A stretch of DNA of 14,988 nucleotides from an uncultured archaeon (lineage in GTDB: Archaea; Asgardarchaeota; Lokiarchaeia; Sigyniarchaeales; SOKP01), in the NCBI GenBank assembly GCA_964447495.1, contig CAYUTF010000081.1:1-14988 (forward strand). Direction: 5' to 3'. Under the pieces are notes generated by a model, which saw only the letters and a program-made list of their open reading frames with translations, was not told the DNA's origin and did no database searches. Below, in pieces: positions 45 to 7,298 of this stretch (within the stretch, counting starts at the first letter, position 1; every line of letters starts with the position of its first letter). The translations under genes were made by a program, and so were the position numbers.

Positions 45-2243
45 ATGCGTAGAAGTAATTTAGTGTTAACAAGATATTTGATTATTTTATTTTTTATAAT
101 AACTCCTCTCTTCGGTTTAATTTCAATTTCAAAGGAATATAATAACAATCATATGATTGAACTAAATAGCTTGGAATTATCAGATAAAATTGCTAATATT
201 GAGTTAACAGATTTGCCTCAAATTGATTATGCTACTCTAAATGATACTTGGTATAATCCCAAAATTGAAATGTTGATAATTTCACCGAATCAAAGTGAAT
301 TCGTTGATGAATTAAAACCCCTTGCCGAATGGAAAAATTATAAGGGGGTAAAAACGGTTATACTCTCTAATTATACGTTATATCCTGGAATAGATGATGC
401 TGAGAAAATTAGAAACATGATTAAGTCATATTATGCTAGTGATAATATCCGATGGGTTCTATTAGCAGGTGATGCTGAAGATGATGTAATCCCAATTCGT
501 TATGTTCTTAATCCTGATGTATTATTGGTTTCACCTCCTGAATCAGAATATTCCAATTTGGATGATTATTATAAACCTACAGATTTTTATTATGCTGAAT
601 TAGATGGTAATTGGAATGAAGATGGAGATGGAAATTGGGGTGAAAATCCTAAAAACAATGCAAATGGGAAAGATGAAATTTCTTGGATTCCAGATGTATA
701 TGTTGGTCGATTGCCAGCGGATAATGCTGTAGAACTTTCAAATATGGTTAATAAATCACTAAAATATGAAATGAATCCAGAAGTTGGAGATTGGATGAAT
801 AAAATGTTATTAGCAGGAGGTATCTCATTATATTATCCCGCAGAAGATGAAGCACGACTTACTGAATATATTTGGCAACATTATACATATCTAAATATGA
901 ATTTTACTAATCTGATAAAAACTACTTCTAGTTTTACTCCAGCTATACCTCCTCCGCCAAACCAACAGGCAGCTCTTAATAATGTAAATTTTGAGGGAGC
1001 TTTTAATGGAGATGCATTTGGTGAAGGAAATTCAGTAGTATTCTTTGCCGGACATGGTGATCCAGGAGTATTTAGTGATGAAAGTGGATCTAATTATTAT
1101 TCTAACACTGATGCTAGCAGTAGCAGTAACTTAAACAAACCATCTTTGGTATACGCAGATGCTTGTACAACAGCTCCTTATGATCTTGATTATAGTGTAG
1201 GAGATAATAATATTGGAGAGAATCTTATTAATCGACCACATGCAGGAGCTATTGGATATATTGGAGGAATACGCGTTAACTGGTATTTACCGGATGATAT
1301 AAATTTAGAAAAATTAAATCGGGGAAATGCGAAACTATTTTTCAAAGAATTCTTCGGGGAAAAAAAGTTCCAACAAGGAAGAGCACTGTTCGATTCTAAA
1401 GTAAGCTACATGAACAGCGACTATTTTCTGAGGGGAGATACCTCAATGGTATTAGAATGGCAAAGAAAAAATATTCTAGCCTATAATCTATTAGGCGATC
1501 CTGAAATTGACATATATACCGATATTCCCACTTCTGTTCCTAATTTCTTTCAAGGAGATATATATGAAGGTCAACTGCTTTCTTTCAATGTTAAAGATAA
1601 TTTAGACAGAACTGTTCCCTATGCACGAGTACATCTAAGAAGTTCAGATGGGAAATATCGGACGGTTTATGCTGATATTAATGGAGACGTTAAATTTAGA
1701 CTGCCCCTCCAAAATAATGAGTTCTATAATGTGACCATCACGGGGCACAATTTAATACCCACTACTTATAATTTTACTACTAAGGAAGATGTAGATTTAC
1801 CTAAGTTGATTACATTTGAAAGTATACCTCATGATTTATCTGTTGATGACCACCTTTACTTTAGCTTAGTTAGTCAAGATAATCATTCAGGAATAGAAAG
1901 TGTATTTATTATATTAACGAAAAATAACTTTGAAGAATACTACGTATATAGAGTTGGGAATAACTTCGATGAGAATCTTCAGGAATTTAATATTACATTT
2001 AATAAGATGGACCCGGGAGATTATTCTTATGCCTTTATTGTTAGAGATTATACGAATAAAACTAAAATTTATTATGAAGAATCGTTTAAATTTCTAATAG
2101 AGACCCCAATTATATATTATATAACGATAATCTCAGTTTTCATGATCGTCGGTATTGTGTGTATCTCAATTTTCTATACTATTTTTAAACTAAACGAATA
2201 CAATAATATAAATCAAAGAATTCCTCCAGATCTCAAAATGTAA
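45..2243 (+). CDS. Peptidase C25 (gingipain-like) cysteine protease, membrane-anchored
   Basis: C25-type motifs LAEWKNYKG, WVLLAGD, PTDFYYAELDG, PDVYVGRLP, catalytic His (FFAGHG) and Cys (YADAC), and YNLLGDP. Hydrophobic N-terminal signal/anchor and a C-terminal TM helix (IIYYITIISVFMIVGIVCISIFYTIF). Confidence 0.9.
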   Translation: MRRSNLVLTRYLIILFFIITPLFGLISISKEYNNNHMIELNSLELSDKIANIELTDLPQIDYATLNDTWYNPKIEMLIISPNQSEFVDELKPLAEWKNYKGVKTVILSNYTLYPGIDDAEKIRNMIKSYYASDNIRWVLLAGDAEDDVIPIRYVLNPDVLLVSPPESEYSNLDDYYKPTDFYYAELDGNWNEDGDGNWGENPKNNANGKDEISWIPDVYVGRLPADNAVELSNMVNKSLKYEMNPEVGDWMNKMLLAGGISLYYPAEDEARLTEYIWQHYTYLNMNFTNLIKTTSSFTPAIPPPPNQQAALNNVNFEGAFNGDAFGEGNSVVFFAGHGDPGVFSDESGSNYYSNTDASSSSNLNKPSLVYADACTTAPYDLDYSVGDNNIGENLINRPHAGAIGYIGGIRVNWYLPDDINLEKLNRGNAKLFFKEFFGEKKFQQGRALFDSKVSYMNSDYFLRGDTSMVLEWQRKNILAYNLLGDPEIDIYTDIPTSVPNFFQGDIYEGQLLSFNVKDNLDRTVPYARVHLRSSDGKYRTVYADINGDVKFRLPLQNNEFYNVTITGHNLIPTTYNFTTKEDVDLPKLITFESIPHDLSVDDHLYFSLVSQDNHSGIESVFIILTKNNFEEYYVYRVGNNFDENLQEFNITFNKMDPGDYSYAFIVRDYTNKTKIYYEESFKFLIETPIIYYITIISVFMIVGIVCISIFYTIFKLNEYNNINQRIPPDLKM

Positions 2244-2474
2244 GTCAATTAACTTAATTTTTATTATTATAGCGTGCAAAAGGAGCCTCATTTTTAATTC
2301 CAATGTTTTTAAAAATGAAATTTTAATTGAGTCAATTCAATTTTGATAAAATTTAATTAATAAGCTACACTATCTCTAAATACTTTAGACCGAATAAGGA
2401 AACATTTCTAATGAAAATATTGATCCTTATTGAATGGTCTCATGTGATAATCTTAACCACTATATTTATCTCGA

Positions 2475-2613
2475 AAAGCGCCGGAAGTTAAACTGTTTCG
2501 CGTTGCATTCAGTACTGTAGTTGCGATCTATGGGAACTTGCAAACTGTAGCTTTGGCTACGGTCATGGTGATCCAGGATATACCCGGTCCCATCCCGAAC
2601 CCGGAATCGCTTT
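2475..2613 (+). other. Bulge-helix-bulge/loop-like splicing-endonuclease motif formed by the two ends of the 5S unit
   Basis: The outer helix 2475-2480/2608-2613 is followed by a 3-nt bulge AAU (2605-2607), a 4-bp central helix CCGG(2481-2484)/CCGG(2601-2604), and AAG (2485-2487) on the opposite strand. The inner side is relaxed. Confidence 0.8.
2487..2606 (+). rRNA. rrf: 5S rRNA, circularly permuted (3' half 2487-~2552, then 5' half ~2555-2606)
   Basis: 5' half is GGCTACGGTCATGGTGATCCAGGATATACCCGGTCCCATCCCGAACCCGGAA, with the loop C hallmark CCCATCCCGAAC. 3' half is GTTAAACTGTTTCGCGTTGCATTCAGTACTGTAGTTGCGATCTATGGGAACTTGCAAACTGTAGCT, with loop E AGTA/GAA and a GCGA-containing loop D. Helices I-V can all be drawn. 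The unit is 120 nt long and GC-rich against an AT-rich background. Confidence 0.93.
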
Positions 2614-2661
2614 CTATATATGTGGTTAAAGATGATCACATATTTCATTACAATTTTTCAA

Positions 2662-2679
2662 AGAAAAACGTTTTTAAAA
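2662..2679 (+). promoter_or_regulatory. Putative BRE-TATA promoter for the 2700 gene (probably leaderless)
   Basis: AGAAAAACG followed by TTTTTAAAA, ending 20 nt before the ATG at 2700; no SD-like motif. The AT-rich background limits certainty. Confidence 0.45.
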
Positions 2680-2699: not shown

Positions 2700-3242
2700 A
2701 TGTTCGATAAGTTCATCTTAATTCTAAAATCAATTGGTCGAAAATGGTTTCTGTTATTAATATTACTAATTGTGATAATCTTTCTATTCAATCCAGAAAT
2801 TGCAATTTGGATGATAATCATTACGTTAGTTATATATTTAGTTTCATTTATCCCAAACTTATTCTTTTCCAATAAATTTAATAGATATATAAAGAAATTC
2901 CATTCCTTAGAAGATAAAGCTCTCGCAAAAAAATTTAATAAACCTCTTAAATTAATACAAGAAAAATTATTTGATCTCTTCCAAAACCAAGAGAAAAAGA
3001 ACTGGGTCATTATTTATCTTAACAAGCAATACATATTTTATAATCGGGAAAGTGTAGAGAAGTTTATGGAATTATATAATAGTGGTTTTGGAGAAAAAGA
3101 AATTTTAGAAAATCTGCAAGAATATGGAATAAAAACGAGAGCGGAAGTCAAAGCAATTTCGGATATTTTAATAAAATTCAACAAACTTAAAGATAGAGAA
3201 GTTTCAGTTAAAACTTATCGTAATGAACAACGATTTAAGTGA
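2700..3242 (+). CDS. Hypothetical membrane protein (two N-terminal TM helices, basic soluble domain)
   Basis: 180-aa ORF with hydrophobic stretches WFLLLILLIVIIFLF and IAIWMIIITLVIYLVSFIPNLFF. It ends 5 nt from the convergent gene. Confidence 0.75.
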   Translation: MFDKFILILKSIGRKWFLLLILLIVIIFLFNPEIAIWMIIITLVIYLVSFIPNLFFSNKFNRYIKKFHSLEDKALAKKFNKPLKLIQEKLFDLFQNQEKKNWVIIYLNKQYIFYNRESVEKFMELYNSGFGEKEILENLQEYGIKTRAEVKAISDILIKFNKLKDREVSVKTYRNEQRFK

Positions 3243-3247
3243 TTTGA

Positions 3248-4927
3248 TCATGATTGTGTGATTTTATTTATATTCGCAATTTCTCTTAATATGATCAAAA
3301 CAAGTTCAATCTCACCGTTCTTATTTTTTGATGCGATATTTGTGGTGCACCAACACTTAATTTTCAAATCTTTTTTTCCCTGAAAGATATATTCATATTC
3401 ATGAATTTTTCCATCCGTAAAACATTTTTTCGCGATACAGTGCTTGCAGGGTTTATTTGAATTCAATAAGAATTCATAACATTTCTTATCCTCAAATTGA
3501 GAATTAAATAAATTCTGCGTTTCATTATTTACCCAAATAATATTGAATTCCTTGTCAATCAAGATTATGGATTCAGTCAATGAGCAGAGAATAGCGGTGA
3601 GTAATTGATTTGTATTTTTCAAGGTTTCCTCTGACCATTTTCTTTGTAAAGCATTTCCAATAATTTCAGATGAAGTTTTTAGCAAAGTGAAATCATCCCT
3701 TCTCCAGCGCGTTGATCCTTCAAGATCGTCGAATCCAATAAATCCGAGTAATTTTTCATTTATTTTAATTGGAAAAAGTACTAATGATTCAATATTTAAT
3801 TTCTGCAATTCTGCTTTTGTGTGTATTTCCTTTTCTGGAAGATCTGAAACATTTTTTATATACACATATCCTTTTTTTTCATACTCTTTTTGAATCCAAG
3901 GAAAATCATCGACATTTGAGTTTACCAAATTTATTTTATTATGCTTGGTCGTTTCAGAGCAAGAAACTTGCGAATAAAATTCTACTGTTTTGTCTTCATT
4001 ATTGAGTAATAGATATGCGTTGGAAGCACCAATTAATTTTCCCATTTCGATTAATGAATAATCGATCGCATCATCTATATCGATATTACTGATAAACCTT
4101 GAAGAGACAGAGGATATTAATTTTTCTATTTCTAGTTTATGCTCTATCAATTGATTGGCTTGCTTAATTTCGGAAAGATCCAATAGAATTGCTTGTAATA
4201 TCTTTACATCCCTTAGTTTTACAATAGATAATAGCGATGTAATCCATATGATACTGCCATCTTTTTTATATATTTTAAATTCAGTAGGTTTAACTATGAT
4301 TCCATTCCATGTATTCTGTAACCTTTCTTTTAAAAGAGGGAGATATTTCAAGGGATATGCTGATAATTTGAGATAATTTTTATGAATTAAATCTTCTTTG
4401 CTATATCCAAAAATTTTTACAGTAGCCTGATTACAGTCTATTATGCTTCCATTTTGATCTAATAATACAATTGGAAAAGGAGCCTGTTCAAAAAGGTGTT
4501 TGTATTTTTCTTCTGATTGCTTCAAATCCAATTCGATTAATTTCTGCTTACTAATATCATTAATGTAAATAATGATAAGATCATCTGGAACTAAAAAGAA
4601 ATTGATTGAAAGATAGTTTAATTTATCATTAGCTTGTGGAGCATATTTGATCTCTTTGATTTCTCCTTGCTTCTGTAGCATACATTCATTCATTTTTTGT
4701 AGAATAAGGGGGGTTTCTTTAAAGAACTCTGAAGCTGGGGTGTTTAATAAGTTTTTTATATCAATGTTTTGTTCTTTTTCAGCAGCAGCATTATAATCAA
4801 TTAAAATAAAATCATCTTCTATTTTCTGCCAAACATAGGCAGGATTAGGAAAGCTGTCAAAAATAATTTTTAAAATTCCATGGGAGAGAATCGATCTATC
4901 GTCTATTATCGTCATTGACTTTTCCAA
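3248..4927 (-). CDS. PAS-PAS-GAF-PAS sensor protein with no output domain
   Basis: PAS (IFDSFPNPAYVW...DYNAAAE), PAS S-box (SEEKYKHLFEQAPFPIVLLDQNGSIIDCNQAT...FGYSKEDL...KKDGSIIW), GAF (IESLVLFPIKINEKLLGFIGFD...W), and a final PAS (SIILIDKEFNIIWVN...CYE...PCKHC). TTG start, exact start uncertain. Confidence 0.88.
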   Translation of the reverse strand: MEKSMTIIDDRSILSHGILKIIFDSFPNPAYVWQKIEDDFILIDYNAAAEKEQNIDIKNLLNTPASEFFKETPLILQKMNECMLQKQGEIKEIKYAPQANDKLNYLSINFFLVPDDLIIIYINDISKQKLIELDLKQSEEKYKHLFEQAPFPIVLLDQNGSIIDCNQATVKIFGYSKEDLIHKNYLKLSAYPLKYLPLLKERLQNTWNGIIVKPTEFKIYKKDGSIIWITSLLSIVKLRDVKILQAILLDLSEIKQANQLIEHKLEIEKLISSVSSRFISNIDIDDAIDYSLIEMGKLIGASNAYLLLNNEDKTVEFYSQVSCSETTKHNKINLVNSNVDDFPWIQKEYEKKGYVYIKNVSDLPEKEIHTKAELQKLNIESLVLFPIKINEKLLGFIGFDDLEGSTRWRRDDFTLLKTSSEIIGNALQRKWSEETLKNTNQLLTAILCSLTESIILIDKEFNIIWVNNETQNLFNSQFEDKKCYEFLLNSNKPCKHCIAKKCFTDGKIHEYEYIFQGKKDLKIKCWCTTNIASKNKNGEIELVLIILREIANINKITQS

Positions 4928-5654: not shown

Positions 5655-6176
5655 ATGACTAAAAAATTCATCCTTAAGATTCTTACAGCAGGTGAAGGTG
5701 GTGTTGGAAAAACTACGCTCCTCCATCGATTTGTGGAAGGCCGTTTCTCAGCGGACACACGCATGACAATAGGTGTAGAGTTTTTTCTAAAAGAGTTAGA
5801 GCTCGATGATAAGCATTGTACATTACAGTTATGGGATTTTGGTGGACAAGAGCGATTTCGCTTTTTATTAGAGAGTTATGTATTGGGAGCTAAAGGAGCA
5901 CTATTGATGTTTGATTTAACACGCCCAATTACCTTAGAAAACTTAGAGCAATGGATAAATATTGTACGAAAAGGTGATCCTGACTTGCCGATTCTATTTT
6001 TAGGAACAAAAAATGATTTAGCAGAAGAGATTATGATAGATGATAATTACGCTTTAGCTTTTAAAGATGAATTTAAATTGATAGATTATCTACGCATCTC
6101 AAGTAAGTCAGGAGAAAATGTGGCAAAAGCATTTGATATCTTGACTTCAAGGATATTAGAACGGCAAAGTTATTGA
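5655..6176 (+). CDS. Rab-like small GTPase (Ras superfamily), paralogue 1
   Basis: G1 GEGGVGKT, G2/RabF1 TIGVEF, G3 WDFGGQERF, G4 TKND, G5 SSK. No C-terminal Cys motif. Confidence 0.95.
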   Translation: MTKKFILKILTAGEGGVGKTTLLHRFVEGRFSADTRMTIGVEFFLKELELDDKHCTLQLWDFGGQERFRFLLESYVLGAKGALLMFDLTRPITLENLEQWINIVRKGDPDLPILFLGTKNDLAEEIMIDDNYALAFKDEFKLIDYLRISSKSGENVAKAFDILTSRILERQSY

Positions 6177-6200: not shown

Positions 6201-6638
6201 ATGAATGATAATATAGTTGTTATCGATGCTAATTTCATTTTATTACCTTTTCAATTTAAGATAGACTTTTTAAATGAAATAAAGCAGAAGCTTCCCGGAA
6301 AAATAACCTTTATTATTTTCAAGCAAGTAATAGATGAGCTAAAAGCTAAAGAAGAACGAGAATATAAAGCTAATAAATTTTCTAAATTATTCAATTCAGG
6401 CTTATTATATTTGGAAAAGAATGAAGCTGATTATGATATCTTATATAATCCTGTAATTAAAACTAAAAATGAGACATCTGATGATTTTTTATTAAGAAAT
6501 TGTAGAGAATTAAAGATAAATGGCAAAATGGTATATTTAGCAACCAATGATAGTGAATTAAAGAAGAGAGCAAAACAAAACAAAATAAATATTATTTATG
6601 TTAGACAAAAAAAATTTATATCAATTGAGAGGCCGTAA
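6201..6638 (+). CDS. PIN-domain ribonuclease, Fcf1/Utp24-like archaeal type
   Basis: VVIDANFILLPFQFKID, VIDEL, SDDFLL and LATNDSELKKRAK...IIYVRQKK carry the acidic PIN residues and the Fcf1-like C-terminus. Confidence 0.88.
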   Translation: MNDNIVVIDANFILLPFQFKIDFLNEIKQKLPGKITFIIFKQVIDELKAKEEREYKANKFSKLFNSGLLYLEKNEADYDILYNPVIKTKNETSDDFLLRNCRELKINGKMVYLATNDSELKKRAKQNKINIIYVRQKKFISIERP

Positions 6639-6767: not shown

Positions 6768-7298
6768 ATGTCAAGATCAAAAGTATTGAAAACCATTATT
6801 ACTGGAGAGGGAGGTGTTGGAAAGACGACTCTGCTGCATAGATATATAGAGGGTCATTTTGATGCTAATACGCGCATGACAATTGGGGTAGAGTTTTTTC
6901 TAAAGGAGTTAAAAGTTGATAATGACTCAATTCTCCTTCAGATTTGGGATTTCGGAGGTCAAGAGCGCTTTCGTTTTCTTTTAAATAATTATACAAAGGG
7001 GGCTAAAGGTGCCTTATTGCTTTTTGATTTAACCCGTCCATTAACTTTAAACACTATAGAAGGATGGGTAAATATTTGCCGTTCAGAAGATCCTGAATTA
7101 CCAATTCTATTAGTTGGTTCAAAAGCTGATTTAGAGGAAATGATTGCAATAGACGATGAGTATATCTCGTCCTTGAAAAACGAGTTCGATTTTTTTGACT
7201 ACCTGCGAATCTCTAGTAAAACGGGAGAAAATGTGGAGAAAACTTTTGAAATAATCGCAAGAGAGATTATAAAACATGTTAAAAAACTACATGGGTAA
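6768..7298 (+). CDS. Rab-like small GTPase (Ras superfamily), paralogue 2
   Basis: G1 GEGGVGKT, TIGVEF, WDFGGQERF, G4 SKAD, G5 SSK. Closely similar to 5655-6176. Confidence 0.95.
   Translation: MSRSKVLKTIITGEGGVGKTTLLHRYIEGHFDANTRMTIGVEFFLKELKVDNDSILLQIWDFGGQERFRFLLNNYTKGAKGALLLFDLTRPLTLNTIEGWVNICRSEDPELPILLVGSKADLEEMIAIDDEYISSLKNEFDFFDYLRISSKTGENVEKTFEIIAREIIKHVKKLHG

What the first reader, a model, noticed from the sequence alone, without database searches (positions are those of the whole stretch)
2475..2613. BHB-like splice motif whose predicted cuts regenerate the exact 5S junction and a 120-nt circle
Seen: CCGGAA is duplicated at both ends (2481-2486 and 2601-2606). The self-complementary CCGG copies form a 4-bp central helix next to AAAGCG/CGCUUU, with AAU and AAG 3' of the helix on each strand. 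Established: archaeal splicing endonuclease (EndA) cuts after the second nucleotide of each 3-nt bulge, and an RtcB-type ligase joins the ends. Inference: cuts at 2486/2487 and 2606/2607 release 2487-2606 (exactly 120 nt), and ligation restores the conserved ...GAACCCGGAA-GUUAA... with no extra or missing base. The inner side is non-canonical (a loop, or a 2-nt bulge with GUU/AAC pairing), so a relaxed-specificity EndA may be required.
Basis: partly seen in the sequence, partly recalled or inferred. Interest (0 to 1): 0.9.

Follow-up and report, generated by a model that had tools for sequence, protein, structure and literature searches.

The report
Permuted 5S rRNA gene, circularised
This archaeon encodes its 5S ribosomal RNA with the two halves swapped, and a tRNA-intron-type splice motif in the flanks cuts out the 120-nt piece and joins its ends into a circle, restoring the normal 5S sequence.

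Summary
Window 2487-2606 is a circularly permuted 5S rRNA gene. Its leader (2475-2486) and trailer (2607-2613) pair with the 3' end of the gene into a relaxed bulge-helix-bulge motif inside a long processing stem.

- **Conservation.** In 67 distinct related loci the 4-bp central helix is fully paired in 64, and the outer helix is at least 3 bp in 64. Both helices covary.
- **Cut sites.** Leader and trailer bulge positions vary, while the bases predicted to end up in the RNA never do.
- **Other break points.** Relatives break the gene at other positions. Applying the same cut rule there also regenerates canonical 5S. Many relatives also carry 30-nt inserts that obey the rule.
- **RNA evidence.** Metatranscriptome contigs from four studies carry the predicted junction. 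Three are 150-nt contigs identical to the window and equal to 120 + 30, a closed 120-nt cycle.
- **Enzymes.** The genome has two splicing-endonuclease paralogs and RtcB, but no canonical 5S gene.

The same gene arrangement occurs across the family and in several other lineages of the phylum. Nine literature searches found no report of it. Two things remain unshown: that EndA and RtcB are the enzymes, and that the circle is the form in the ribosome.

The parts
2442..2468 (+). 5' arm of the long outer processing stem (core UUAACCAC 2453-2460)
   Evidence: Inverted repeat I1 (27 nt, 74% complementary) and exact 8-nt core I7. It is part of the minimum-energy fold. Leader-trailer duplexes are stronger than shuffles (z < -2) in 58 of 66 related loci, with covarying core types: AACCACA/TGTGGTT 33, AACCATA/TATGGTT 5, AGCCATA/TATGGCT 2, AACCGCA/TGCGGTT 1 and others.
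2475..2480 (+). Outer BHB helix h, leader strand (AAAGCG)
   Evidence: Pairs with 2608-2613. An uninterrupted run of at least 3 bp next to the central helix occurs in 64 of 67 loci. All 6 pairs show changes on both sides in alignment A1.
2481..2484 (+). Central 4-bp BHB helix H, leader strand (CCGG). This copy is not part of the mature RNA.
   Evidence: Pairs with 2601-2604. Paired 4/4 in 64 of 67 loci. Helix types include CCGG/CCGG, CUGG/CCAG, CUGG/CCGG and CUGG/UCAG. 99.2% of cells are paired in A1.
2485..2487 (+). Leader-side bulge AAG, with the predicted cut between 2486 and 2487. It is not closed by an inner helix, so this side is the loop side of a relaxed motif.
   Evidence: Positions -2,-1 vary in relatives (AA 50, AU 2, AC 2, AG 1), whereas the following G is invariant in 55 of 55.
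2487..2606 (+). The excised 120-nt segment, a circularly permuted 5S rRNA. Model positions 52-120 come first, then a tetraloop, then positions 1-51.
   Evidence: After rotation it aligns end to end with canonical 5S of the sister family. On A1, 97.4% of cells in the five 5S helices are paired and 19 of 30 pairs have compensatory changes. RNA contigs form a closed 120-nt cycle.
2552..2555 (+). Tetraloop UUUG that closes helix I where canonical 5S has its 5' and 3' ends
   Evidence: Read. Relatives have UUCG, UACG, UUAG or UUUG here, and the helix I stem covaries (helix 4: 99.6% paired, 4 pairs with change on both sides).
2582..2606 (+). Helix III and loop C, the only part that Rfam's linear 5S model recognises
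   Evidence: RF00001 model positions 27-51, 23.7 bits against a gathering score of 38.
2601..2604 (+). Central BHB helix H, 3' strand (CCGG). The same bases form the 3' strand of helix III in the mature RNA.
   Evidence: columns 138-141 pair with 13-16 in the precursor model and with 121-124 in the 5S fold.
2605..2607 (+). Trailer-side 3-nt bulge AAU, flanked by H and h (the canonical side). The predicted cut is between 2606 and 2607.
   Evidence: The bulge is present in the minimum-energy fold. AA is invariant in 55 of 55, while the third base varies: A 26, U 19, G 9, C 1.
2608..2613 (+). Outer BHB helix h, trailer strand (CGCUUU)
2615..2641 (+). 3' arm of the outer processing stem (core GUGGUUAA 2622-2629)
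2654..2675 (+). Two runs of five T (2654-2658 and 2671-2675) downstream of the stem, likely the transcript end (inference)
   Evidence: Read. T-rich runs also follow the stem in the related loci printed. Not tested.

Best explanation
Window 2487-2606 is the organism's only recognisable 5S rRNA gene. It is written in permuted order, with the 3' part of 5S first. A 4-nt loop stands where the normal ends would be, followed by the 5' part.

The primary transcript folds so that a long leader-trailer stem (2442-2468 with 2615-2641) carries a relaxed bulge-helix-bulge motif:

- outer helix 2475-2480 with 2608-2613;
- 4-bp central helix 2481-2484 with 2601-2604;
- a canonical 3-nt bulge AAU on the trailer strand;
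- AAG in an open loop on the leader strand.

The archaeal splicing endonuclease cuts after the second base of each bulge (2486|2487 and 2606|2607). An RtcB-type ligase then joins A2606 to G2487. This gives a covalently closed 120-nt RNA whose sequence across the joint is the conserved 5S sequence of helix III and the following loop.

What is shown: the permuted order, conservation and covariation of the motif, the position of the joint, and RNA that contains the joint. What is inferred: which enzymes act, and that the circle rather than a re-opened form is what sits in the ribosome. I put the second point at about 65%, because helix I is capped by a stable tetraloop with no spare sequence to process.
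For: **1. Permuted 5S.**
- Rfam matches only model positions 27-51, ending at 2606.
- After rotation the 120 nt align end to end with canonical 5S of the sister family.
- The five 5S helices are 97.4% paired, with 19 of 30 pairs compensatory and 0 of 500 shuffles as good.
- The genome has no canonical 5S. There are two sub-threshold hits only, while 13 of 14 control genomes score over the cut-off.

**2. Motif.**
- The minimum-energy fold contains the stem, h, H and the AAU bulge.
- Of 67 distinct related loci, H is 4/4 paired in 64 and h is at least 3 bp in 64.
- On 32 intron-free loci, 82.3% of cells are paired against 71.4% shuffled (0 of 500 as high) and 13-47% when the partner is slid. The covariation score is 0.328 against 0.154.

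**3. Cut sites.** Leader -2,-1 and trailer +1 vary, while the retained AA and G are invariant in 55 of 55.

**4. Independent break points obey the same rule.**
- In 12 distinct loci the break lies in loop C. In 11 of them the predicted joint is ACCCGGUC|CCAUCCGAAC, which is canonical loop C.
- A third break point occurs in another family.
- Other lineages show perfect 10- to 15-bp outer helices.

**5. Inserts.** For 30-nt inserts in the gene, 18 of 25 loci have a product-preserving register that obeys the rule, against 12 of 468 control registers.

**6. RNA.**
- Runs X1, X2 and X3, from three studies, each hold one 150-nt contig with no differences on 2481-2606.
- Each contig's 12 loose letters at either end equal window 2589-2600 and 2487-2498. 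The length 150 equals 120 + 30, a closed cycle.
- X5, from a fourth study, has a 231-nt contig with a joint that goes back 120.
- X3 also holds a 151-nt contig of a relative whose predicted circle is 121 nt.

**7. Enzymes.** Two EndA paralogs are present. One has the Tyr-His-Lys pattern and best matches a heterotetramer catalytic chain (E 8e-36). The other lacks the His. RtcB scores 561 bits.
Against: - No enzyme assay exists. EndA and RtcB are assigned by analogy.
- The leader-side cut lies in a loop, not in a closed 3-nt bulge, so the motif fails the strict definition.
- Three of 67 loci have an A.C mismatch in the central helix (L088-L090). In family f4 the outer helix is weak when read by eye.
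- From RNA alone the joint can lie anywhere within the 6-nt repeat (column 'both' = 6). The exact position rests on comparative data and the cut rule.
- The RNA data are assembled contigs of low word depth (2 to 20). They show presence but give no amounts, ends or strand, so they cannot tell a mature circle from an intermediate.
- Two EndA paralogs are found in about 139 of 151 genomes of the phylum sample, including families with a canonical 5S. They permit the mechanism but do not single it out.
- The rule 'cut after the second bulge base' is recalled from the literature. My attempt to calibrate it on this genome's own tRNA introns was inconclusive.
Confidence: 0.88

Rival explanations
1. 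The circle forms as described but is only an intermediate. It is re-opened, for example in or near the helix I loop, to give a linear 5S with conventional ends, as happens with permuted tRNA genes of a red alga and with circular pre-16S rRNA.
For: There are precedents of circular intermediates that are re-linearised (passages in PMC12918454; PMC4267664). The contigs cannot measure the share of circular molecules.
Against: - Helix I is closed by only four bases (UUUG here; UUCG, UACG or UUAG in relatives). No spacer is left to trim, so opening would leave extra or missing bases.
- The closed 120-nt word cycle in three runs means RNA covers both the loop and the joint.
- The closest precedent, the Thermoproteus SRP RNA, stays circular (PMC4731332 abstract).
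Confidence: 0.25
2. The transcript is trimmed but never ligated. A linear permuted 5S with its ends in helix III works in the ribosome, as reported for brown-algal mitochondria.
For: Brown-algal mitochondrial 5S is permuted in both gene and product (PMC4267664 passages).
Against: RNA contigs in four runs read across the joint. The motif that would bring the ends together is conserved and covaries. The break would sit inside a conserved helix.
Confidence: 0.04
3. The joint in the RNA contigs is an artefact. It could come from a head-to-tail DNA repeat in some strain, from template switching by reverse transcriptase, or from mixing of words from two differently permuted genes during assembly.
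For: The data are k-mer contigs of metatranscriptomes, and the tool warns that DNA can be present in RNA libraries.
Against: - The same joint appears in four runs of four studies, at the place predicted beforehand.
- Three contigs are identical to the window over 126 nt.
- None of the 70 annotated loci is a tandem array.
- The differently permuted genes found in this genus are only about 75-76% identical to the window.
Confidence: 0.03
4. The ends are made and joined by other enzymes, and the likeness to a splicing-endonuclease substrate is coincidental.
For: No enzyme test was possible. The leader side is not a canonical bulge.
Against: The 4-bp helix, 3-nt bulge and cut-after-second-base geometry recurs at three or more break points and several insert sites, with different sequences. 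Control registers meet it in only 12 of 468 cases.
Confidence: 0.05

Closest known systems
Permuted SRP RNA gene of Thermoproteus tenax, circularised by the tRNA splicing machinery (PMC4731332; abstract and passages read)
   Same: A universal structured RNA is encoded in permuted order. Leader and trailer fold into a BHB, and a heterotetramer-type endonuclease with relaxed specificity is involved. The ends are ligated into a functional circle, and standard gene finders miss the gene.
   Different: The RNA here is 5S rRNA, a ribosome component. The trait is spread over a whole family and several other lineages of a phylum rather than a few species. The break point moves between lineages, and the gene also carries BHB inserts. 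No biochemical proof exists here.
[quoted passage not shown]
   Same: The gene halves are swapped and the order is restored through cleavage and ligation of the precursor.
   Different: There the circle is an intermediate that is opened again at the tRNA ends. Here the old ends are fused by a tetraloop with nothing to remove.
Circular pre-16S/23S rRNA and circular or permuted 23S rRNA in archaeal ribosomes (PMC12918454 and PMC7758197 passages; 10.64898/2026.03.23.713588 search listing only)
   Same: A BHB sits in a long processing stem, with EndA-type excision and ligation of an rRNA. In some lineages a circular large-subunit rRNA is present in the ribosome.
   Different: Those genes are colinear and circularisation joins the natural ends. 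The introduction of PMC12918454 states that this pathway concerns 16S and 23S 'but not 5S rRNAs'. Here the gene itself is permuted and ligation creates an internal 5S sequence.
Permuted mitochondrial 5S rRNA of brown algae (PMC4267664, passages read)
   Same: The 5S gene has helix I closed by a hairpin and new ends elsewhere.
   Different: It is organellar and is permuted in the final product too, with no ligation and no BHB. Its Rfam-type model gives no hit here (no match of any family at gathering score).
Minor circular isoforms of ordinary 5S rRNA in Halobacterium and Sulfolobus (PMC12558985 passages)
   Same: 5S-derived circles exist in archaea.
   Different: Those come from colinear genes, have variable ends, and are suggested by the authors to reflect degradation. 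Here there is one defined joint that is needed to rebuild the 5S sequence.
Engineered circularly permuted 5S fused into 23S rRNA in E. coli (PMC7283268, abstract in search listing only)
   Same: It shows that a 5S with re-connected natural ends can work in a ribosome.
   Different: It is artificial and bacterial, and is linked to 23S rather than being a free circle.

Membership tests
5S rRNA (Rfam RF00001) | Linear sequence reaches the family's gathering score (38 bits) | tested here: not met
   Only model positions 27-51 match, at 23.7 bits. No match of any family at gathering score in the whole window. This is expected for a permuted gene. The rotated sequence could not be given to the Rfam tool.
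5S rRNA (Rfam RF00001) | Three-armed fold with helices I-V kept by covariation, plus the conserved loop C and loop E sequence blocks | tested here: met
   The rotated circles align end to end with canonical 5S of the sister family. The circular consensus fold gives the five helices. 97.4% of cells are paired, 19 of 30 pairs are compensatory, and 0 of 500 shuffles are as good.
5S rRNA (Rfam RF00001) | It is the genome's 5S, with no other copy | tested here: met
   The own genome (98.4% complete) has no hit over the cut-off and one match to the permuted-core model. The only canonical 5S in the genus lies beside a bacterial 23S on a contaminant contig.
Bulge-helix-bulge substrate of the archaeal splicing endonuclease | Central helix of exactly 4 bp | tested here: met
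   2481-2484 pairs with 2601-2604. Paired 4/4 in 64 of 67 distinct loci and 99.2% of cells paired.
Bulge-helix-bulge substrate of the archaeal splicing endonuclease | A 3-nt bulge flanked by the central helix and an outer helix (at least one such bulge, per PMC4731332 passage) | tested here: met
   AAU 2605-2607 lies between H and h. The outer helix is at least 3 bp in 64 of 67 loci, with covariation.
Bulge-helix-bulge substrate of the archaeal splicing endonuclease | A second 3-nt bulge closed by an inner helix h' (strict hBHBh' form) | tested here: not met
   After AAG, U2488 would face C2600. Only a 2-nt bulge with GUU/AAC is possible. The loop C break-point class likewise has no h'. This is therefore the relaxed bulge-helix-loop form. 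The name and its link to heterotetrameric enzymes are partly recalled and partly.
Bulge-helix-bulge substrate of the archaeal splicing endonuclease | Cleavage by the endonuclease at the two bulges | not testable with these tools
   Indirect only: joint position in RNA, invariant versus variable bases around the cuts, and the same rule working at other break points and inserts.
Bulge-helix-bulge substrate of the archaeal splicing endonuclease | Endonuclease and RtcB ligase encoded in the genome | tested here: met
   PF01974 hits twice (104 and 69 bits). One paralog has the catalytic pattern and one lacks it. RtcB scores 561 bits.
Permuted RNA genes restored through a circular RNA (SRP RNA of Thermoproteus type) | Gene order 3' part then 5' part, with the natural ends fused | tested here: met
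   plus the helix I tetraloop.
Permuted RNA genes restored through a circular RNA (SRP RNA of Thermoproteus type) | RNA molecules that carry the joint | tested here: met
   Contigs in 4 of 4 runs laid, from four studies. These are contigs only, with no raw reads.
Permuted RNA genes restored through a circular RNA (SRP RNA of Thermoproteus type) | The circle is the mature, functional form | not testable with these tools
   Suggested by the 4-nt cap on helix I and by the closed word cycle. Contigs cannot give amounts or ends.

The most novel reading that the evidence does not exclude
A covalently circular 5S rRNA is the normal ribosomal form in a large part of the Asgard (Promethearchaeota) archaea.

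- **Distribution.** The permuted, BHB-flanked gene is old and widespread in the phylum. Canonical 5S was found in only 49 of 151 sampled genomes. Permuted forms were seen in at least ten families: f1, f3, f4, f8, f9, f13, f24 and f26 by the permuted-core model, and f10 and f18 by eye.
- **Plasticity.** Because the product is a circle, the break point can drift around the molecule. At least three or four positions were seen. The gene also tolerates splicing-endonuclease introns at several sites.
- **Consequence.** The tRNA splicing machinery would then be an essential ribosome-biogenesis factor in these organisms.
Probability: 0.5. Interest if true: 0.92.

Novelty: new variant of a known kind. 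Interest (0 to 1): 0.9.

Why it matters
5S rRNA is universal and is described as a linear molecule that, unlike archaeal 16S and 23S, does not pass through a circular stage (PMC12918454, introduction).

Here a whole lineage of the archaea closest to eukaryotes has no colinear 5S gene. It must rebuild the molecule with the tRNA splicing machinery, and probably keeps it as a circle.

- **Annotation.** This explains why standard models fail to find 5S in most genomes of this phylum: 49 of 151 are found.
- **Biology.** It ties tRNA splicing enzymes to ribosome assembly.
- **Evolution.** It offers a natural experiment on how a circular RNA lets a gene's break point and introns move.
- **Testability.** The prediction can be tested directly in the cultured and enriched members of the group, by junction RT-PCR, RNase R treatment and ribosome structures.

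Tried and rejected
1. **Rfam on the linear sequence.** No family reaches gathering score in the window. I used alignment to canonical 5S and pair counts instead.
2. **tRNA scan of the window.** None found.
3. **Calibrating the cut rule on this genome's own tRNA introns.** ARAGORN in intron mode gave 15 calls among 56 tRNAs. Most looked unreliable, and only 2 of the 13 examined fitted the rule in a product-preserving register. This was inconclusive and was dropped.
4. **Single-sequence circular fold of the 120 nt.** It is no more stable than mononucleotide shuffles (z -0.66) and does not give the 5S fold. Only the alignment-based fold does.
5. **Two EndA paralogs as a correlate of permutation.** Rejected, because about 139 of 151 genomes of the phylum sample have two or more matches, including families with canonical 5S (my count from its table).
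6. **Cover of the flanks by RNA contigs.** No contig lay on 2380-2480, and only one divergent contig in X2 lay on 2613-2720. Following the tool's own advice, I draw nothing from uncovered parts.
8. **Inserts that do not fit the rule or were ambiguous.**
   - L086/L087: an insert in helix I that may be an extension of the capped helix rather than an intron.
   - L102: 3 of 4 pairs.
   - L103, L072, L080, L100: the alignment splits the gap.
   - L098: no single gap of at least 20.
   - The two loci with 181-nt segments (L088, L109) were only half analysed.
9. **Family f4.** The break point and central helix were read by eye and the outer helix is weak.
11. **Supplementary files of papers are closed.** The circRNA tables of PMC12558985 and PMC12918454 might list 5S circles of Asgard genomes, and I could not check them.
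12. **Literature.** Nine searches found no report of a permuted or intron-bearing archaeal 5S gene. The library lacks most subscription journals.
Full report
**What is in the sequence.** The window comes from a 3.8-Mb, roughly 30% G+C archaeal genome that is 98.4% complete in 223 contigs. The window encodes two Ras-family GTPases among other genes. The nearest homologues of the genome's splicing endonuclease carry the source names Lokiarchaeota or Promethearchaeota archaeon.

- CCGGAA lies at 2481-2486 and 2601-2606.
- AAAGCG 2475-2480 faces CGCUUU 2608-2613.
- CCGG 2481-2484 faces CCGG 2601-2604.
- AAG and AAU follow the central helix on each strand.
- 2487-2606 is 120 nt.

The hexamer repeat by itself is not unusual: 5 copies in the window against 3.65 expected. 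A longer stem (2442-2468 with 2615-2641, core UUAACCAC/GUGGUUAA) encloses everything. The minimum-energy fold of 2440-2650 contains this stem, both helices and the AAU bulge. Its z-score is -3.9, and none of 200 shuffles folds as well.

**It is a permuted 5S rRNA gene.**
- Rfam finds nothing at gathering score in the window. At a relaxed threshold it matches only 2582-2606 to positions 27-51 of the 5S model, stopping at 2606 (23.7 bits).
- The bases that should follow in 5S (GUUAA...) stand at 2487.
- I cut the predicted segments out of the window and its relatives, rotated them in a script to start in the helix I loop, and aligned them. They align end to end with canonical 5S genes of the sister family.
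- On 32 intron-free loci, the five 5S helices are 97.4% paired and 19 of 30 pairs show compensatory change. No shuffle of 500 is as good, and slid controls give 33-45% paired.
- Where canonical 5S has its two ends, the gene has a tetraloop: UUUG at 2552-2555 here, and UUCG, UACG or UUAG in relatives.
- The genome has no other 5S.
- The single canonical 5S found in the genus lies next to a bacterial 23S rRNA on a contaminant contig.

**The motif is conserved and covaries.**
- A DNA search found the colinear, permuted arrangement in 21 of 24 other genomes of the genus and in none of 16 genomes of other families of the order.
- It was then found in 114 of 134 other genomes of the family, covering 11 of 13 genera.
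- I extracted 72 loci. Two that were truncated at contig ends (L018, L025) were dropped, 70 were annotated, and 67 were distinct.
- The central helix is 4/4 paired in 64 of 67. The three exceptions have an A.C pair next to the bulge. The outer helix is at least 3 bp in 64 of 67.
- Central-helix types in the loci that share the window's break point: CCGG/CCGG 29, CUGG/CCAG 16, CUGG/CCGG 4, CCGA/CCGG 3, CUGG/UCAG 2, UCGG/CCGG 1.
- The pair-counting tool, run on alignment A1, gave these values:

| Measure | Observed | Control |
|---|---|---|
| Cells paired | 82.3% | 71.4% shuffled (0 of 500 as high); 13-47% when the partner is slid |
| Covariation score | 0.328 | 0.154 |

- All six outer-helix pairs change on both sides.
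- One caveat applies. The central helix's 3' strand is also the 3' strand of helix III, so its covariation is shared with the mature fold. The informative point is that the leader copy, which is not in the mature RNA, follows it.
- The outer processing stem is stronger than shuffles (z < -2) in 58 of 66 loci and has covarying core types.

**Where the cuts fall.** In the 55 distinct loci with this break point:
- The two leader bases before the predicted cut vary: AA 50, AU 2, AC 2, AG 1.
- The base after the cut is G in all 55.
- The two bases before the trailer cut are AA in all 55.
- The base after the trailer cut varies: A 26, U 19, G 9, C 1.

Selection therefore acts on the 3' copy of AA and on the leader-side G. 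That is the pattern expected if A2606 is joined to G2487.

**Other break points and inserts obey the same rule.**
- In twelve distinct loci, from this genus and three other genera, the break lies in loop C. The same kind of leader (C[C/U]GG plus two bases) pairs with the other strand of helix III. In 11 of the 12, cutting after the second bulge base gives ACCCGGUC|CCAUCCGAAC, which is canonical loop C.
- A locus of another family (f3) breaks in loop B, with a 4/4 central helix.
- Lineages outside the class break one base away from the window's site. They have perfect outer helices of about 10 and 15 bp.
- Twenty-eight of the 67 loci carry inserts of about 30 nt at several sites (loop C, helix IV/V, the loop D side, helix I). 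I placed the insert boundaries by pairwise alignment alone. In 18 of 25 single-insert loci a product-preserving register obeys the 4-bp helix and second-base rule, against 12 of 468 control registers. The exceptions are listed under Tried and rejected.

**RNA.**
- Seventeen RNA runs hold part of 2440-2650. Three hold 0.55 of its sampled words.
- I laid four runs from four studies on 2380-2720.
- X1, X2 and X3 each have one 150-nt contig with no differences on 2481-2606. Each has 12 further letters on either side, equal to window 2589-2600 and 2487-2498.
- The length 150 is 120 plus 30. That is what I expect a word-graph assembler to return for a closed 120-nt cycle, taking k = 31 for these contigs from recall.
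- X5 has a 231-nt contig, 95-99% alike, whose two parts lie on 2487-2600 and 2481-2597. Its joint goes back 120 and can be placed at six equivalent positions.
- X3 also has a 151-nt contig, with 9 differences, of a relative whose predicted circle is 121 nt.
- RNA therefore exists that reads across the predicted joint and across the helix I loop.
- These are contigs of low word depth. They prove presence, not abundance, ends or strand.

**Enzymes.**
- The genome has two PF01974 genes. One is 201 aa with the Tyr, His and Lys pattern, and best matches the catalytic chain of a heterotetrameric enzyme (E 8e-36). The other is 205 aa and lacks His at the aligned position.
- RtcB is also present.
- According to the passages read in PMC4731332, a BHB is a 4-bp helix flanked by at least one 3-nt bulge, and heterotetrameric endonucleases are the most relaxed. 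This fits a motif whose leader side is a loop.
- Two paralogs are nearly universal in the phylum sample, including lineages with canonical 5S. They allow the mechanism but do not mark it.

**Distribution.** I built a covariance model of the fused-ends core: the loop E side, helix IV, capped helix I and the helix II 5' strand, 70 positions in all.

| Sample | Permuted-core model hits | No hits |
|---|---|---|
| Order | f1 118 of 131; f3 1 of 1; f4 3 of 4 | f2 0 of 14 (has canonical 5S) |
| Rest of the class | none | 0 of 7 |
| Phylum, 151 genomes | f1 23 of 25; f8 4 of 4; f13 3 of 5; one genome each in f9, f24 and f26 | other families |

- In the same phylum sample, the canonical model passes its cut-off in 49 of 151 genomes. 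All of these lie in families with no hit to my model.
- About 68 genomes match neither model. Two of them, one a closed 2.8-Mb genome, turned out to be permuted when read by eye.

**Comparison with what is known.** The closest precedent is the permuted, BHB-flanked SRP RNA of Thermoproteus, which is circularised by the splicing machinery and works as a circle. Other relatives of the idea:
- permuted tRNA genes of a red alga;
- circular pre-16S/23S and circular 23S rRNA in archaea;
- linear permuted 5S in brown-algal mitochondria;
- minor circular isoforms of ordinary 5S;
- an engineered permuted 5S in E. coli (listing only).

Nine searches of the held library found no report of a permuted or intron-bearing archaeal 5S gene. 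A 2026 paper states in its introduction that the circular pathway concerns 16S and 23S but not 5S. Supplements were closed and most subscription journals are not held, so prior description cannot be excluded.

**Verdict.**
- Shown: the permuted order, conservation and covariation of the motif, the position of the joint, and RNA containing the joint.
- Inferred: EndA and RtcB as the enzymes (about 85%), and the circle as the mature ribosomal form (about 65%).

The mechanism is a new variant of a known kind, applied to a universal ribosomal RNA in the archaeal phylum nearest to eukaryotes.

Noticed in passing
L023, L024, L095, L097, L104-L108, L111, L112, L127, L131 (other genomes of the family); variant L076: A second break point of the permuted 5S gene, in loop C. 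The leader C[C/U]GG plus two bases pairs with the 5' strand of helix III. The predicted joint ACCCGGUC|CCAUCCGAAC is canonical loop C in 11 of 12 distinct loci.
   Followed up: yes
L040:1400-1590 (- strand), sister family f3: A third break point, in loop B, with central helix CCGA/UCGG and a GCG/CGC outer helix. Rfam sees only model positions 20-59 (37.6 bits).
   Followed up: partly
L014-L017, L019-L022, L066, L072, L079, L080, L086-L089, L093, L096, L098, L100, L102-L109: Inserts of about 30 nt inside the permuted 5S gene at several sites, and two loci with two inserts. Most have their own 4-bp helix and 3-nt bulges, and their removal restores canonical 5S. These look like splicing-endonuclease introns in a 5S gene. 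The helix I insert (L086/L087) may instead be an extension of the capped helix.
   Followed up: partly
L138-L145, L146, L148 (other families of the phylum): Permuted 5S genes with long, perfect outer helices (about 7 to 15 bp) and central helix CGUG/CACG or CAGG/CCUG. They occur in small and closed genomes of other lineages. In L146 the leader holds two CGUG copies separated by a hairpin.
   Followed up: partly
Phylum sample of 151 genomes: The canonical 5S model passes its cut-off in only 49 of 151 genomes. 34 match the permuted-core model, with no family in both groups. About 68 match neither, so further unrecognised 5S forms are likely.
   Followed up: partly
window 2388-2438: A conserved inverted repeat lies just upstream of the processing stem (AATAAGGA 2393-2400 with TCCTTATT 2424-2431, flanked by AGACC/GGTCT). 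The pattern ACCAnATAAG ... CTTATnnnATGGT recurs upstream of the gene across the family. It may be a promoter region or an extra leader structure. It was not analysed.
   Followed up: no
Leaders of many related loci (for example L004, L013, L074, L090): A small hairpin (such as GUAGC-loop-GCUAC) sits in the leader between the outer stem and the BHB outer helix. It is absent from the window's own leader.
   Followed up: no
L039 (G014:C263): A contig of a genus member carries a bacterial 23S, 5S and a tRNA. It is a contaminant contig in that assembly.
   Followed up: yes
G072:C109:5308-5374 and G111:C211:1-65: Second, weaker or truncated matches to the permuted-core model in two genomes. These may be extra or decaying gene copies.
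   Followed up: no
window 5655-6176, 6201-6638, 6768-7298: Two Ras-family small GTPase genes (E 6.5e-40 and 4.5e-41) flank a PIN-domain gene. This is typical of Asgard archaea.
   Followed up: no
window 45-2243 and 3248-4927 (- strand): A 732-aa peptidase family C25 protein lies upstream of the 5S gene, and a 559-aa PAS/GAF sensor protein lies downstream. A 180-aa ORF at 2700-3242 has no Pfam family.
   Followed up: no
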